This document shows, one piece after another, positions 40,403-45,260 of a DNA stretch of 64,000 nucleotides. Origin of the DNA: a virus (lineage: Duplodnaviria > Caudoviricetes); the IMG/VR virus record IMGVR_UViG_2885028616_000003, positions 46,985-110,984 of that record; one strand, 5' to 3'. The notes below the pieces were generated by a model, which saw only the letters and a program-made list of their open reading frames with translations, was not told the origin of the DNA and did no database searches. Made by a program: the position numbers and the translations under genes. The first letter of the stretch is position 1. Each line of letters opens with the position of its first letter.

Positions 40403-41951
40403 GGGGCTCTCCTTCGGGTGGGCGGCGGAGGCGCCGCGGGAACTGGATGACGTCGCGCCGACCATCCGACCGGCGCACGAGGACGTTCCGCGGCCCCGCC
40501 TTCACCCGACCGTGCCAGTGCAGCCAGGACGGGCACGGCGCCGGCGGATGCGCGCGGGAGGTGCCACGCCACTGCGCGAGGACGGTCACGGGCTCGGGCG
40601 GGCGCCGGTAGCCGGAGAGGCGGTCGCCCGGGTCGAGGTAGGTCCGGCCAAGGATGCTCACGACCCGGCCCCTGACGTTCCGGGCCCGGAGACCAGCCGG
40701 TACCCGGTCCGCCGCTCCAGCCCGGCCGCCGTCACCCCGGACGCGTAGAGCTGACGCGTGGCCAGCGACCGCTCACGGACCCCGCGGCCGTCCTCGAGGA
40801 GGGTGACGACCTGGACTTTGCTGTAGCCGGGGAGCCACCGGTCGCCCGGGTCACCGACGACCCGGATCCGGGTGCGGACGGGTTCGCCGTCCACGAGGTA
40901 GGTGGGCTGGCAGGACTCGTACACCTGCCCCGGCGCGATGGCGTGCGCGGACTCGGCGTTCCGAGCCTCGCGCGGCGCTGAGATCGCCTGTGACGGCTCC
41001 GGAGCGTCCCGGCCCTGTCGCGATACGTGATCGGCGGTGCTCGCGGCGCCGTGATCGGATCCGGGGCTGCCAGCCCCATCCCCGCCCCGCCAGGTCCCTT
41101 CTCCGGTCACAGGTCGCCGCCCATCGCCGCCACCAGGCCGGCCACGGCGTCGGCGTCGGAGCGGGACCGGACCACCACGCGTGGCGTCATGCCGGGGCGC
41201 GGGACGGTCAGCACGATCTGCTGGTCGCCCTTCCCGATCTGTTCGGCGCGGGTCACGAGGTCGTGGACTTGGGGCAGGGGGAGGGTGGCGGTTGCGGTGG
41301 TCATTTCTCCGGTTGTGGTGATCACGGTGAGGGTGATCTGTCGGGTGTCGGTGGTGGGTTGGGGTGTGGCGTCGTTCATGCGTTGTGTCCCTTTTTGACG
41401 GTGGTGGGTTCTCATGGGGCGTACGGCTTTTATAGGCGTTTGTGTCCGTTTAAGTTCGTTCGTTCCTTCTGGCAGTCGGTTATGGCGCGGCCCCGTGGTC
41501 GTCCTCGTACGAGACCGGCTGCTCGTTGCTCATCAGCGCGTTCATTGCCGTTTCGTCGACGCCGCGTCGTTCGGCCCGGATGTGGTCGCGTGCGGCTTCG
41601 CGGGCGACGAGGGCTGTGATCCATTCGGTGAGGGCGAGCGCCCAGGAGCTTCGCGCCCGTTCGGTTTGGATGCCCTTGGGGTTGCGGCGACGGCGTGCGT
41701 CGTATGCGCGGCTGGCGGAGCGTTCGCTGGCGCGTGCTGCGGCGAGACGTCGGTCGGCGTCGTCGGCGGCGGCCTGGGCGGCGCGCAGCTCCGCGCTGAG
41801 GTCTCTGCTCACGGCGATCAGATCTCGCTTTTCCACATCGGCTTCGGCCCGCTTCGCCGCCTTCCAGTTCAGCCACCGGAGACAGAAGCGGGGTCTGGTG
41901 CAGTTGTTTGAAGAGGTGCAGTTGATCTCTTAGGTGCTTGTAAACGTCTGG

Positions 41952-42125
41952 GGGGGTACGGGGCCCACCCCCTTTAGGACCTAAGGGGGTACACAGCCCA
42001 CCCCCTTTGAAGCGGTTAGGGGGTACAGGGCCCACCCCCTTAGTCCAAAGGGGGTATGGAGCCCACCCCCTTTGGACTGGCGGGCGCCCGGTTGTCCACA
42101 GGCCCGAGACGCCGGGTTGTCCACA
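41952..42125. repeat. Putative replication origin: four iterons and two DnaA boxes
   Basis: GGGGGTA-N4-GCCCACCCCCTT at 41952, 41985, 42019, 42050; TTGTCCACA at 42092 and 42117. Confidence 0.85.
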
Positions 42126-42129
42126 GGGA

Positions 42130-42504
42130 TCACGCGACCTCCTCGGCTGCCACGATCCGCGCGAACGCGGGCAGTTCGGGCAGCCGGAAGTCCATCGCGT
42201 GCCCCTTGGCCGCGTACACCGGATCGCCGTTCTTGTCCCGCTTCCACACCACGCGGACATCCAGCCCGCGCTCGGCGAGCCGCTGGAGGATCTTCTTGAG
42301 CCCCTGCGGGGACACCTTCGCTACCTGGCACAGCCGGTCGTACAAGTCGCAGTCGTCGTTCTTGAAACGGCGCATGTCCCGGGCCCGCTCGTCCAGGACA
42401 CGGTCCGCGATCGTCAGGAGCACGGCGAACTCCTTGTCCGACAGCTCCGCGCCCGCAGGCGTACGACGCCACTCGATGACGTCGCCCACGAGCTTCCCGC
42501 TCAA
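42130..42504 (-). CDS. Replication initiator-like winged-helix protein (short)
   Basis: LSDKEFAVLLTIAD...LQRLAERGL..R....K.G.PVYA.KG...FRLP; abuts the iterons. Confidence 0.65.
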   Translation of the reverse strand: MSGKLVGDVIEWRRTPAGAELSDKEFAVLLTIADRVLDERARDMRRFKNDDCDLYDRLCQVAKVSPQGLKKILQRLAERGLDVRVVWKRDKNGDPVYAAKGHAMDFRLPELPAFARIVAAEEVA

Positions 42505-42759
42505 TCCGCAGCCCTCCCACCTCTCTCAGCGCCTGGCTAGCCGTCATATGAGGGCTGGACCTCCTGTCGCTACGACCTGCTGAGAGTCACGTTGCGTAGA
42601 TTGAACATGACCAACTGTAGCGATCTCGGAGCATGATGTCAGGTCATGGCGTATGGTCATTCGGTGATGCTGTGATCGACGCCCCCGAAGCGAGGACATG
42701 CCGTGACTGCACTCCCTCTCCGTGCGAGCATGGCCACCGTGAGTGAGGGAGAGGACTCC

Positions 42760-42972
42760 GTGGAGACCAGGCTGAAGAAGGCCGTGCGCGGGTACCGGCG
42801 CGCCACCCAGGCGCGGATCGAGCTGCACGAAGCCATCAAGGCCGCCGCCGCCGGCGGCAAGACGCCGAAGCAGATCACGTTCCTGATCGACCACGAGTAC
42901 GACGTCGCGCACGTCTCGCGGATCATCCACGGCAAGGTCGGCGGCAAGCGGAAGCCCCCCGCCAAGGACTGA
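42760..42972 (+). CDS. Small HTH-like regulator
   Basis: ELHEAIKAAAAGG..PKQI......Y...HVSRI; GGAGAGGA RBS; divergent from rep. Confidence 0.65.
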   Translation: METRLKKAVRGYRRATQARIELHEAIKAAAAGGKTPKQITFLIDHEYDVAHVSRIIHGKVGGKRKPPAKD

Positions 42973-43047
42973 CCTGCTCGCGCGCCCTCCAGCGCGGCTC
43001 GTGCTGTCCGTCTCCCCCATCGATCCCCCGATCGTCGTTTTTCCTCA

Positions 43048-44066
43048 TGTGGTCTGGTCTGTCGGCTAGGCCGGGGACGGTCAGCGGCGACCAGGCCTGG
43101 CTAGTCGTTCCGGCGCGGTCCGGCTTGCTGCGGTCCGGCTTGTCGTTCTGGCGAGGCCCGTGCAGGGCGCGGCTAGTCGGTTCAGGGGCGGGCACGAGAC
43201 GGGATGGGTAGTCGGGATGGCAGGGCGAGGCTGGTTCTGGCAAGGCAAGTCGTTGCGGCATGGCGAGGACGGGCAGGGCCAGACAAGGCATGTCGGTGTG
43301 GCGAGGTGCGGCTGGGGTCGACGTGAGCTGTCGATCTGGTATGGCATGGCGAGGGCAGGCGAGGATCGGCAAGGCATGGCCTGGGTTGGCGAGTCGGCAT
43401 GGGATGGCGAGGCCGGATTAGGTACGTCGACGCGGTCTGGCGAGGCCGGGCTAGGCCTGTCGGCAGCGGGCAGACGGGGAAAGCAGGAGAAGGGACATGT
43501 CGGACTGAAAGGACCAGGCATGGCGAGTCGGCAAGGGCAGGCTTGGTCGAGACTTGGCGAGAAATGGCGAGTCGTGGCTATGTGGCGAGGACGGGCGGGG
43601 CCAGGCAAGGCAAGTCGGCGCGGCGAGCAGGGGCGGGGCCTGACTTGTCGAACGGGCACGGCGAGGTAAGGCGTGAGTTGGCAAGTCGAAGCGGCCTGGC
43701 ATAGCTCGACATGTCGCTGAGGCCGGGCGGGTGCGAGGCATGGCACGTCGGATGGGCACGGCATGGCACGGTCTGGCATGGCCCGTTCGGGGCCGGGCGA
43801 GAAGGGGCATGTCGGTGTGGCACGGCCCGGGTCGGCGGGGACAGGCGCCGGCGGGACGCGGCAAGGCTTGTCGCCGGAGGCGAGGGCGGGACGCGATGGG
43901 GGCGGGTGCACGTCATGACAAGTCGGCATGGCGAGGCGAGGGTTAGGCACGGACCGGCGAGGCGCGTCGGGCACGGTGCGGCGGGGTCCAAGCGTGGCGC
44001 GATTGGGGCTGTCGGCACGGCCGGGTCTGACCAGGGCGGGCGGGACTGGGCCTGTCGTGTTGGCTA
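43048..44066 (+). repeat. Pentamer-periodic array, 24 units of GTC + (GGY-NN)n; candidate guide-RNA array, not a CRISPR
   Basis: 25 GTCG delimiters between 43061 and 44054; 14 of 24 spacings are 5n+3 and 6 are 5n+4. Confidence 0.85.
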
Positions 44067-44096
44067 GCCGCATCGTGGTTCGCGGCGTCGCGGGTA

Positions 44097-44122
44097 GGCC
44101 GCCCGGACTGTGCCGGGCGGCC
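44097..44122. terminator. Perfect 10 bp hairpin between Cas7-like gene and array
   Basis: GGCCGCCCGG-ACTGTG-CCGGGCGGCC. Confidence 0.6.
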
Positions 44123-44130
44123 CGGTCACG

Positions 44131-44847
44131 CTACTGCTTGTCGAACGCGAGGAGCTCGAACTTGCCGTCCGAGCGGCCCCGGTCCGCGCCGATCCCGATG
44201 TCCTCGCCGCGCTCCCAAATCCGGCCCCAGGCCTCCATCGGCAGGAAGTCGTCGTGGACCCGGACCGTGAACTCCAGAAGCGGCTGCTCCACGTACTCGA
44301 CCCGGTTGATCGAGGAACGCGGCCCCTGCGGGGTCTTCACGTGCTTGATGCGCTCCTCGACCCCGTGCGGCTCCGTCACCCCGAGGTCGATGTACACCTC
44401 GGGGACGAACACCCTTTCGGCGAGGGTGGACATCAGCCCCTTCCGGAACCCCTTGGTGATCTTCGACTTGCCGGGGAAGTCCGTGCCCGGGTAGGCGGAG
44501 TTGGCCCACTCCTTCAGCGCGGCCTTCATGCACCGCCCCTCGTACCCCAGCGCCCCCGTGCCGGGGATGCGCTTGAAGCCGTTGACCGACACTTCCGCGT
44601 CCCCCGACTCCATCACCGCCTGCGCCAGCTCGTCCGCCGACGGCTGCCGGTCGGGGAACCGCTCCTTCAGCGTCGCGTCCGCCAGCTCCTGCAGGTCCCG
44701 GTCCCCCAGCTCCAGGCGGGTCTTCAGCCAGCCCTTGATCACGCTCGGGGACGAGGGGACCCCACCGACCAGCTTGTCGAGAACCTGCAGCCGCACCACG
44801 TACACCGCGACGTCCGACTTGGTCCCGAACACGTCCGTAGCACTCAT
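44131..44847 (-). CDS. Stand-alone Cas7/RAMP-like protein
   Basis: 238 aa; VRLQVLDKLVGGVP, GRCMKAALKE helix, GPRSSINRVE thumb-like segment, C-terminal G-rich loop GIGADRGRSDGKF. Confidence 0.75.
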   Translation of the reverse strand: MSATDVFGTKSDVAVYVVRLQVLDKLVGGVPSSPSVIKGWLKTRLELGDRDLQELADATLKERFPDRQPSADELAQAVMESGDAEVSVNGFKRIPGTGALGYEGRCMKAALKEWANSAYPGTDFPGKSKITKGFRKGLMSTLAERVFVPEVYIDLGVTEPHGVEERIKHVKTPQGPRSSINRVEYVEQPLLEFTVRVHDDFLPMEAWGRIWERGEDIGIGADRGRSDGKFELLAFDKQ

Positions 44848-45260
44848 CGTCCCGTCCCCTCCGAATGGACCGCCATCGCCGGCGCGGCGATCGCGTTCTG
44901 CGTCTTCACGCGCTCGGCTTCGAGTGCGCGCTTCAGAGACCCGTTCACGGTCTCCAAGTCCTTGATCTCGTTGCGGGCCGCCTCCAGGTCCGCCTCCACC
45001 GCAGAGCGGCCCTCGACCTCGCGGCGGACCTCGTCGAGCACGACGCCGGCGCGGCCGTAGGCGGCGAACGTGGCCTTCACCTCGGTCGCCTTCTGCACCG
45101 TCAGGTACAGGTCGAACACCTCGCGCGGGGTCTTGCCGCGCAGGCTCTTGCCGGTGATCGCCTCGATGTTCCGGCGCGCTTTCTCGTCGGTCTTCAGCAG
45201 CTCCACCACGGCGTCGAACTCCTCCGCCGAGTACTCCTGCGCCCTGCGTCGTCTCGCCAT
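44844..45260 (-). CDS. Coiled-coil protein coupled to the Cas7-like gene
   Basis: 138 aa, AGGAG RBS, ATGA overlap with downstream gene. Confidence 0.75.
   Translation of the reverse strand: MARRRRAQEYSAEEFDAVVELLKTDEKARRNIEAITGKSLRGKTPREVFDLYLTVQKATEVKATFAAYGRAGVVLDEVRREVEGRSAVEADLEAARNEIKDLETVNGSLKRALEAERVKTQNAIAAPAMAVHSEGTGR

What the first reader, a model, noticed from the sequence alone, without database searches (positions are those of the whole stretch)
43061..44057. Array grammar: GTC plus n pentamers, 24 distinct units, GGY strand antisense to the gene
Seen: GTCG delimiters at 43061, 43104, 43142, 43176, 43211, 43249, 43292, 43330, 43393, 43426, 43459, 43499, 43527, 43571, 43614, 43647, 43685, 43713, 43747, 43811, 43870, 43922, 43966, 44011 and 44054. 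Spacings run 28-64 nt; 14 of 24 are 5n+3 and 6 are 5n+4. Example at 43330: GTC GATCT GGTAT GGCAT GGCGA GGGCA GGCGA GGATC GGCAA GGCAT GGCCT GGGTT GGCGA. Units differ from one another, unlike a slippage microsatellite. GGY reads on the plus strand while the gene is on the minus strand. Inference: GTCG/CGAC marks processing boundaries, and the RNA is either a convergent plus-strand transcript or an NN-RCC variant co-transcribed with the gene.
Basis: partly seen in the sequence, partly recalled or inferred. Interest (0 to 1): 0.85.

Follow-up and report, generated by a model that had tools for sequence, protein, structure and literature searches.

The report
VIPR guide-RNA array in a prophage
The 1-kb pentamer tract is the guide-RNA array of a VIPR system, a CRISPR-related phage RNA-guided DNA-silencing system first described in 2026 preprints, so it is a real new example of a known kind with an unusually dense array that lies antisense to its gene.

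Summary
Window 43061-44057 is non-coding and G-skewed, with a strong 5-nt period (z 9.4). GG occupies positions 1-2 of about 80% of pentamers. GTCG occurs 28 times against about 10 expected, and 14 of 24 spacings are 5n+3 (P 4e-5).

The gene just downstream on the minus strand (44131-44838) folds as a Cas7-family RAMP (Foldseek E 2e-6, Z 11.1 to Csm3). A small helical gene (44844-45260) is coupled to it.

The same module recurs in all 13 related loci examined, down to 29% protein identity. These are prophages of Streptosporangiaceae and relatives, metagenome contigs and one isolated phage. In every case the G-rich strand is antisense to the RAMP gene.

This matches VIPR systems (bioRxiv 10.64898/2026.04.26.720920): a Vipr protein, a vap gene and vrRNAs made of GGY-NN repeats.

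It differs from the tested type II exemplar, phage SUSP1. There are 24 short guides without tails, set off by a 3-nt GTC shift that probably corresponds to the preprint's 'staggered' arrays. The orientation is antisense. The interior of the array is hypervariable.

No RNA data could be obtained and no targets were found. This scan has already noted VIPR systems in at least 34 other genomes.

Verdict: new member of a known kind.

The parts
43061..44057 (+). vrRNA array: 24 units of GTC + 5-12 GGYNN pentamers (27 units if the three internal GTCG are counted). GG is conserved and the NN at positions 4-5 is variable.
   Evidence: period-5 z 9.4, GG at positions 1-2 in about 80% of pentamers, GTCG enrichment, 5n+3 spacing. 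No coding-like frame.
44054..44092 (+). Conserved terminal unit. It holds GGCTAGCC (44062-44069) and a 5-bp stem, 44067-44071 paired with 44082-44086, followed by GTCGC. It is the only array-proximal sequence shared by distant relatives.
   Evidence: present in 10 of the 11 loci checked (not in L012). The stem is GCCGC/GCGGC in the window, L014 and L015 and GCCGT/ACGGC in L005-L010 and L013, which is one compensatory change.
44097..44122 (.). GC-rich 10-bp hairpin between the array and the stop codon of the RAMP gene. It could act as a terminator for both convergent transcripts. There is no U-run on either strand.
   Evidence: Read from the sequence. Analogous hairpins are seen in L005, L006, L007, L014 and L015.
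44131..44838 (-). vipr: Cas7-family RAMP protein, 235 aa (homologues are 237 aa), with a C-terminal glycine-rich loop GxGxDR...G.F.
   Evidence: Model pLDDT 86.6. Foldseek PDB top hits are all Csm3/Cmr4/type VII Cas7/Cas7-11, E 2e-6. VIA Z 11.1, 10.4 and 10.2. BFVD viral RAMP proteins, E 7e-13 to 7e-8. 565 and 916 relatives. No Pfam family.
44844..45260 (-). vap-like accessory gene, 138 aa: three short helices followed by one long helix. Its stop adjoins the vipr start.
   Evidence: Conserved directly upstream of vipr in L006-L010, L014 and L015. Model pLDDT 77. No PDB match with E < 1.
42703..42972 (+). Small HTH-like gene on the G-rich strand, convergent to vipr and ending 89 nt before the array. 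It is a possible source of, or neighbour to, the array promoter. Its membership of the module is uncertain.
   Evidence: Coding-like GC3 of 0.90. Similar small convergent genes occur in L014, L006 and L009 but not in L005, L007, L008 or L010.
43021..43044 (+). Weak terminator-like site (5-bp stem plus a T-run) between the small gene and the array.

Best explanation
The tract is the guide-RNA (vrRNA) array of a prophage-borne VIPR system. The system consists of the Cas7-like Vipr protein (44131-44838, minus strand), a small accessory gene (44844-45260) and about 24 guides. Shown here: the fold of the protein, the pentamer grammar, the conserved linkage of gene and array, and the hypervariability of the array. 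Inferred from the published mechanism (type II system of phage SUSP1): the G-rich strand is transcribed, here convergently to vipr. One Vipr protomer binds each GGYNN repeat and grips GGY. The exposed NN dinucleotides pair with double-stranded DNA while skipping every third base, and binding silences genes of competing phages or other mobile elements. The GTC between units is a 3-nt shift of the pentamer lattice. It is equivalent to one guide ending in YNNG, with that G also starting the GUCGG of the next guide. This is probably the 'staggered array with 1-nt overlap' of the preprint, and it marks where the precursor is divided into guides of 5-12 repeats.
For: The protein has a Cas7/RAMP fold. 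Its G-loop aligns with that of SUSP1 Vipr: GlGAxR against GVGDWR, where D177, W178 and R179 contact G1, G2 and Y3 according to 10.64898/2026.04.26.720927; R220 is invariant in 86 relatives. The GGYNN lattice is real. Gene and array are linked in 13 of 13 loci, down to 29% identity and including an isolated phage. The context is a prophage. The accessory gene is conserved. The array interior cannot be aligned between two prophages whose vipr region is 91.7% identical, while the terminal unit and two distal units are shared; this fits variable guides on a constant scaffold. NN dinucleotide usage fits codon positions 1-2 of sense strands best (r 0.71, best log-likelihood of six frames, TA rare), as expected from a code that skips the wobble base. 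The published definition of VIPR was read. The conserved hairpin lies at the 3' end of the G-rich strand, where published vrRNAs carry their tail.
Against: There is no expression data, so transcription, strand and processing are unshown. In the tested exemplar SUSP1 the vrRNAs lie on the same strand as vipr and each has its own roughly 40-nt hairpin tail. Here the GGY strand is antisense and internal units have no tail. The simple consensus scan listed no sigma-70-type promoter on the + strand upstream of the array, and a weak terminator-like site precedes the array. Sequence similarity to SUSP1 Vipr is marginal (hhalign E 1e-3, probability 22%, G-loop region only). Position 3 is a pyrimidine in only about 60% of pentamers. 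No target was found by the 1-nt skip rule. Most guides specify only 10-16 bases, fewer than the published 9-16 repeats.
Confidence: 0.85

Rival explanations
1. It is the same VIPR-like module, but the functional RNA is the C-rich strand, co-transcribed with vap and vipr as a 3' extension of the operon. The guides would then be GCC-NN (NN-RCC) repeats delimited by CGAC, which would be a different constant triplet from the published GGY.
For: The C-rich strand is co-oriented with vipr in 13 of 13 loci. In SUSP1 the guides are co-oriented with vipr. No + strand promoter was detected. Non-canonical constant triplets exist in other VIPR-like clusters (10.64898/2026.10.21.760802).
Against: A strong GC-rich hairpin separates the vipr stop from the array in the window and in L005, L006, L007, L014 and L015. 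The G-loop residues that grip GGY in SUSP1 have counterparts here. The conserved structured element would then be a 5' leader, whereas published vrRNAs carry a 3' tail. The non-canonical triplets named in the passages I read do not include an RCC motif.
Confidence: 0.11
2. It is a cis-acting DNA or transcript element unrelated to guide RNAs. Candidates are an array of protein-binding sites (iterons or a centromere), a G-quadruplex or R-loop forming tract, or a C-rich, G-poor Rho-loading tract that ends the vap-vipr operon.
For: The G/C skew is strong. (GGNNN)n fits a two-tetrad G-quadruplex motif, and C-rich G-poor RNA is the classical Rho substrate (both from general knowledge). An origin-like region was noted about 1 kb away by a first-stage reader and was not checked.
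Against: None of these accounts for the strict linkage to a Cas7-fold gene across 29-95% identity, for GG conserved with NN free, for the 5n+3 quantisation or for the turnover of the interior. Binding-site arrays usually keep their sequence.
Confidence: 0.03
3. It is a neutral degenerate minisatellite, or a proline-rich protein encoded on the minus strand (ORF 43081-44073, 330 aa).
For: A 330-aa ORF spans the tract. The genome holds other degenerate repeat regions.
Against: The ORF fails the codon-position GC test, lag-3 autocorrelation is depleted and there is no family match. Other minus-strand frames are also open over long stretches (137-149 aa). The arrays of relatives cannot be aligned, so no protein is conserved. 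The grammar and position are conserved across families and one isolated phage, which is not neutral behaviour.
Confidence: 0.01

Closest known systems
VIPR systems (Vipr + vap + vrRNA), bioRxiv 10.64898/2026.04.26.720920; the class with 'staggered arrays with overlapping vrRNAs' (its fig. S18)
   Same: A lone single-RRM RAMP protein with a G-loop, a small accessory gene, a (pro)phage context, flanking intergenic GGY-NN pentamer repeats with hypervariable NN, and contiguous guides in which the end of one marks the start of the next. The 5n+3 spacing is what a 1-nt overlap of two pentamer lattices gives.
   Different: I could not see the figures or data tables, so I do not know the type (I-VII), or whether this actinomycete family is among the 667 published systems. 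As I read the text, staggered arrays were not among the architectures confirmed by small-RNA sequencing. Guides here have 5-12 repeats against the published 9-16.
Type II VIPR of Escherichia phage SUSP1 (NC_028808.2, genes agp039 and agp038, vrRNAs at 27.6-29.2 kb)
   Same: GGYNN repeats next to a roughly 20-25 kDa RAMP and a small second gene. The G-loop has Asp/Arg in register.
   Different: SUSP1 has four guides on the same strand as vipr. Each has 12-16 repeats, apparently its own upstream signals, and a roughly 40-nt hairpin plus U tail. Here there are 24 tail-less guides antisense to vipr, and protein similarity is marginal.
CRISPR-Cas type III backbone subunits Csm3/Cmr4 (Cas7) with crRNA
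   Same: These are the best structural matches. Their mode of action is a protein filament along a guide RNA with periodic base flipping.
   Different: There is no CRISPR repeat-spacer array and no Pfam or PHROG cas-family match among the eight ORFs next to the array that I scanned. The period is 5 nt with sequence-specific GG, not 6 nt without sequence preference.
TRAP-type ring proteins binding (G/U)AG-NN repeats (from memory, not tested)
   Same: A triplet plus 2-nt spacer periodicity in an RNA ligand.
   Different: The protein fold is unrelated, and the units here are variable in length and hypervariable in sequence. I considered this early and dropped it once the RAMP fold was found.

Membership tests
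VIPR system | Vipr protein: RAMP fold (RRM core, glycine-rich loop, thumb) encoded outside a CRISPR-cas locus | tested here: met
   Model pLDDT 86.6. Foldseek E 2e-6 to Csm3/Cmr4/type VII Cas7. VIA Z 11.1 over 156 residues. C-terminal GxGxDR..G.F loop. No CRISPR-type repeats nearby. Prophage neighbours.
VIPR system | Sequence homology to a published, tested Vipr (SUSP1 agp039) | tested here: inconclusive
   hhalign of an 86-sequence profile: only the C-terminal strand and G-loop region aligns, E 1e-3, probability 22%. A shallow profile found nothing. The preprint itself says Viprs share little sequence similarity.
VIPR system | At least 4 tandem YNNGG (GGY-NN) repeats in the intergenic DNA flanking vipr | tested here: met
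   24 units of 5-12 pentamers; GG in 82% and 78% at positions 1-2; position 3 is C/T in about 60%.
VIPR system | GGY conserved while NN is hypervariable among related systems | tested here: met
   Position-wise composition. The interior of the array cannot be aligned with a prophage whose vipr region is 91.7% identical.
VIPR system | Adjacent vap accessory gene | tested here: inconclusive
   A 138-aa helical gene is conserved directly upstream in 8 loci. It has no detectable fold or family match and no similarity to SUSP1 vap1 was tested.
VIPR system | Viral or proviral context | tested here: met
   Tape measure, portal, large terminase, RecT and RecE in the window. Relatives occur in IMG/VR contigs and in phage PP395641.1.
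VIPR system | vrRNAs are expressed and co-purify with Vipr | not testable with these tools
VIPR system | Guides match natural DNA targets by the 1-nt skip rule | tested here: inconclusive
   No match of 80% or more for long guides in the own genome. No excess over other skip rules or shuffles in 165 kb of related prophage DNA. No clustering of hits. No exact match for the 11-repeat guide in IMG/VR or in the metagenome contigs. One chance-level hit in 401 family genomes. NN usage does fit codon positions 1-2.
VIPR type II (SUSP1-like) | Each vrRNA carries an invariable structured 3' tail of about 40 nt and lies on the vipr strand | tested here: not met
   Internal units are separated only by GTC. 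The GGY strand is antisense in 13 of 13 loci, whereas it is the same strand in SUSP1. Only the last unit has a conserved hairpin.
CRISPR-Cas class 1 (type III-like) | Repeat-spacer array with a constant 24-40 nt repeat | tested here: not met
   Tandem Repeats Finder and direct reading show no constant repeat.

The most novel reading that the evidence does not exclude
This actinomycete family may be a distinct VIPR type. About two dozen very short, tail-less guides would be made from a single precursor transcribed antisense to vipr and cut at GUC by an unknown activity. The array would be renewed by an active or polarised process, either guide acquisition or cassette exchange, because between near-identical prophages only the terminal unit and the far end of the array are shared.
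Probability: 0.15. Interest if true: 0.75.

Novelty: new member of a known kind. Interest (0 to 1): 0.35.

Why it matters
VIPR is a newly described, minimal RNA-guided way of recognising DNA, and only type II and two other architectures have RNA-level evidence. This prophage, with more than 500 relatives of its protein in actinomycetes, offers a compact natural locus with 24 guides. The locus could be used to test how staggered, tail-less arrays are transcribed and divided. It could also show whether 5-8 repeats (10-16 programmable bases) suffice for targeting in a 9.5-Mb high-GC genome, and how arrays turn over. It does not change the known picture of the system.

Tried and rejected
1. Protein-coding reading of the minus-strand 330-aa ORF. 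Rejected: no codon periodicity, it fails the GC3 test and it has no family match.
2. Known RNA families. Rfam at E <= 1 on 40-47 kb gave nothing relevant, including no hammerhead.
3. DNA similarity of the module to isolated phages: none. Other copies of the array in the own genome: none.
4. TRAP-like, Rho-loading, G-quadruplex and iteron ideas were held early and dropped after the RAMP fold and the VIPR literature turned up.
5. The accessory protein as a Cas11-like small subunit. There is no structural support: no PDB match with E < 1.
6. Target prediction by the 1-nt skip rule in six ways: nothing above chance. Guides of 12-16 specified bases are too short for database-wide searches.
9. Supplementary tables of the preprint, wanted to look up the type: not held.
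10. A 'Tas-like' second module noted by a first-stage reader at about 51-55 kb. A Pfam scan of five ORFs there gave only an Lsr2 DNA-binding domain, and no 18-nt arrays were seen. Not pursued further.

Full report
**Observation.** Window 43061-44057 was read directly. Three more, at 43317, 43546 and 43831, lie inside units. The tract is 71% G+C with 467 G against 238 C.

Autocorrelation against 300 dinucleotide-preserving shuffles gives z = 9.4 at lag 5, 8.2 at lag 10 and 7.8 at lag 38. Lag 3 is depleted at z = -4.5. When each unit is written as GTC plus pentamers, position 1 is G in 82% and position 2 in 78%. Position 3 is C in 47%, and positions 4-5 are mixed.

GTCG occurs 28 times against 10.1 +/- 3.1 in Markov simulations, while CGAC occurs 4 times. 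14 of 24 spacings are 5n+3 (P = 4e-5). A logo around 116 GTCG sites from seven arrays shows GG at -15/-14, -10/-9 and -5/-4, and again at +8/+9 and +13/+14. GTC is therefore a 3-nt shift of the GG lattice.

No frame has coding-like codon-position G+C. Tandem Repeats Finder sees only small local repeats. The tract is the third strongest period-5 window in the 9.5-Mb genome.

**Context.** The window is a prophage with nearly all genes on the minus strand. It carries a tape measure protein, a portal, a large terminase, RecT and RecE. It lies in a single-contig 9.5-Mb actinomycete genome.

On the minus strand just upstream of the array lie a 235-aa gene (44131-44838) and a 138-aa gene (44844-45260). 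Neither has a Pfam family, and the only PHROG match is one weak, non-significant hit for the 138-aa gene (E 0.007).

A first-stage note on the same stretch called the 235-aa protein Cas7/RAMP-like, and I tested that. An AlphaFold model built on 35 homologues has pLDDT 86.6. The best-ranked Foldseek matches against the PDB are all Csm3, Cmr4, type VII Cas7 or Cas7-11 domains (E 2e-6, probability 1.0, TM 0.43-0.54). An independent all-against-representatives alignment gives Z 11.1 (Csm3 9g9a_D), 10.4 (type VII Cas7) and 10.2 (Csm3 6ae2_B). In BFVD the best matches are viral RAMP-like proteins, including archaeal virus proteins.

The family is large: 565 proteins in one search and 916 representatives of 50% clusters in the other.

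**Conservation of the module.** Relatives of the protein were found in Thermoactinospora, Nonomuraea and Actinomadura genomes, in two IMG/VR contigs, in metagenome contigs and in one isolated phage, PP395641.1. The record of that phage names Microcystis as its host.

In 12 of the 13 loci with enough flank, the RAMP gene is followed by 0.3-0.9 kb of period-5 DNA. The exception is L003, where the array lies upstream of the gene at a contig end. In all 13 the tract is C-rich on the gene's strand, so it is G-rich antisense to the gene. All carry GTCG punctuation. This holds down to 29% protein identity.

Spacings in relatives are again enriched for 3 mod 5 (47 of 113, P = 1.4e-7). The 138-aa gene is conserved directly upstream in eight loci. 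Other neighbours are not conserved.

**Hypervariability.** A prophage in Actinomadura bangladeshensis (locus L014) has a Vipr 95% identical to the window's. Its vap-vipr region is 91.7% identical in DNA to the window's, and the far end of its array is 76% identical. The interior of the array cannot be aligned. Only the terminal unit and two distal units find a counterpart.

The terminal unit, next to the gene, holds GGCTAGCC and a 5-bp stem with one compensatory change between clades. It is conserved in ten of the 11 loci checked.

**What it is.** A literature search for Cas7 plus pentanucleotide found bioRxiv 10.64898/2026.04.26.720920. [quoted passage not shown] These consist of a lone ancestral RAMP (Vipr), an accessory vap gene and vrRNAs of YNNGG repeats. 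GGY is constant and NN is hypervariable.

VIPR systems lie mostly in phages and prophages. The NN dinucleotides recognise double-stranded DNA while skipping every third base, and binding represses transcription of competing elements. Seven types are named. [quoted passage not shown]

A companion paper shows that one protomer binds each repeat, with the G-loop and thumb gripping GGY. Two later preprints extend the biology and report 99 period-5 clusters.

The window's module meets every defining feature that can be tested in sequence.

**Comparison with the tested exemplar.** I located the SUSP1 locus in NC_028808.2. Genes agp039 and agp038 lie on the minus strand. Four GGYNN tracts lie on the same strand, each followed by a hairpin plus U tail of about 40 nt.

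The present family differs in three ways. The GGY strand is antisense to vipr. Internal units have no tail. Guides are shorter, at 5-12 repeats.

A profile of 86 relatives aligns with SUSP1 Vipr only over the last strands and the G-loop (E 1e-3, probability 22%). This puts the family's invariant R220 opposite R179 of SUSP1. Sequence-level homology therefore remains marginal, as the preprint says is usual for RAMPs.

**The GTC.** If a guide ends in YNNG, and that G is also the first base of GUCGG of the next guide, the spacing is 5n+3, as observed. This is my inference for equating the grammar with the preprint's staggered arrays. I could not see the figure.

**Strand.** No RNA data could be obtained. 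Three points favour the G-rich, convergent transcript. The published protein grips GGY, and its contact residues have counterparts here. The conserved structured unit lies at the 3' end of the G-rich strand, where published tails lie. A strong hairpin separates the vipr stop from the array.

Three points count against it. The consensus scan listed no sigma-70-type promoter on the + strand upstream of the array. A small convergent HTH-like gene that might supply a promoter is present in only four of nine loci. In SUSP1 the guides are co-oriented with vipr. I put about 0.11 on the C-rich alternative.

**Targets.** Applying the 1-nt skip rule gave no match above chance:
- in the own genome;
- in 165 kb of related prophage DNA, against other skip rules and shuffled controls;
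- as clusters of hits in the own genome;
- for the cleanest long guide (43338-42392 excluded; 43338-43392, 22 specified bases), as exact matches in IMG/VR;
- for the same guide, as exact matches in the metagenome contigs;
- for the same guide, in 401 genomes of the family with up to 3 mismatches.

Indirectly, the 564 NN dinucleotides from 12 arrays resemble codon positions 1-2 of sense strands better than any other frame or strand. Pearson r is 0.71, the log-likelihood is the best of six, and TA is rare. That is what a wobble-skipping code aimed at genes predicts.

**Verdict.** The thing is a VIPR guide array, a kind described in 2026 preprints and already noted by this scan in at least 34 other genomes. 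It is a new member of a known kind. Its family-specific traits are antisense orientation, GUC-staggered tail-less short guides and a conserved terminal hairpin. These are worth an RNA-level test.

Noticed in passing
L013:1-2910: One metagenome contig carries two divergent vipr paralogues back to back (334-1041 minus, 1721-2629 plus; 29% and 33% identical to the window's protein). Each has its own array downstream. The first array uses a doubled delimiter, GTCGCGTCGG.
   Followed up: partly
L020:2453-3716 (PP395641.1, Microcystis phage Mae-JY09): An isolated phage record holds the same vipr plus antisense GTCGG-punctuated array at its right end (38% protein identity). The DNA looks G+C-rich for a Microcystis phage.
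   Followed up: partly
window 42703-42972: A small HTH-like gene sits on the opposite strand to nearly all prophage genes and ends just before the array. Similar small convergent genes occur in L014, L006 and L009 but not in four other relatives.
   Followed up: partly
G000:C1:1166200-1166800 and 2371700-2372400 (outside the window): These are other non-coding-looking stretches of degenerate 5-nt-periodic repeats (GGCAC/GCGGY-like, CAGCAG-like), ranked first and fourth for period 5 in the genome. No RAMP gene was looked for nearby.
   Followed up: no
G000:C1:488800-489500 (outside the window): A near-perfect tandem repeat of a unit of about 37 bp in many copies. It gives the second strongest period-5 signal in the genome.
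   Followed up: no
window 51398-52306: A prophage gene with a C-terminal Lsr2 DNA-binding domain (E 1.5e-12). The prophage in L014 also carries an Lsr2-domain gene. A first-stage note proposes a Tas-like RNA-guided module in this region; my quick Pfam and repeat scan found no support for it.
   Followed up: partly
window 41897-42504: First-stage notes describe an origin-like region with dyad iterons and DnaA boxes behind a 124-aa gene, about 0.6 kb from the array. I did not check it.
   Followed up: no
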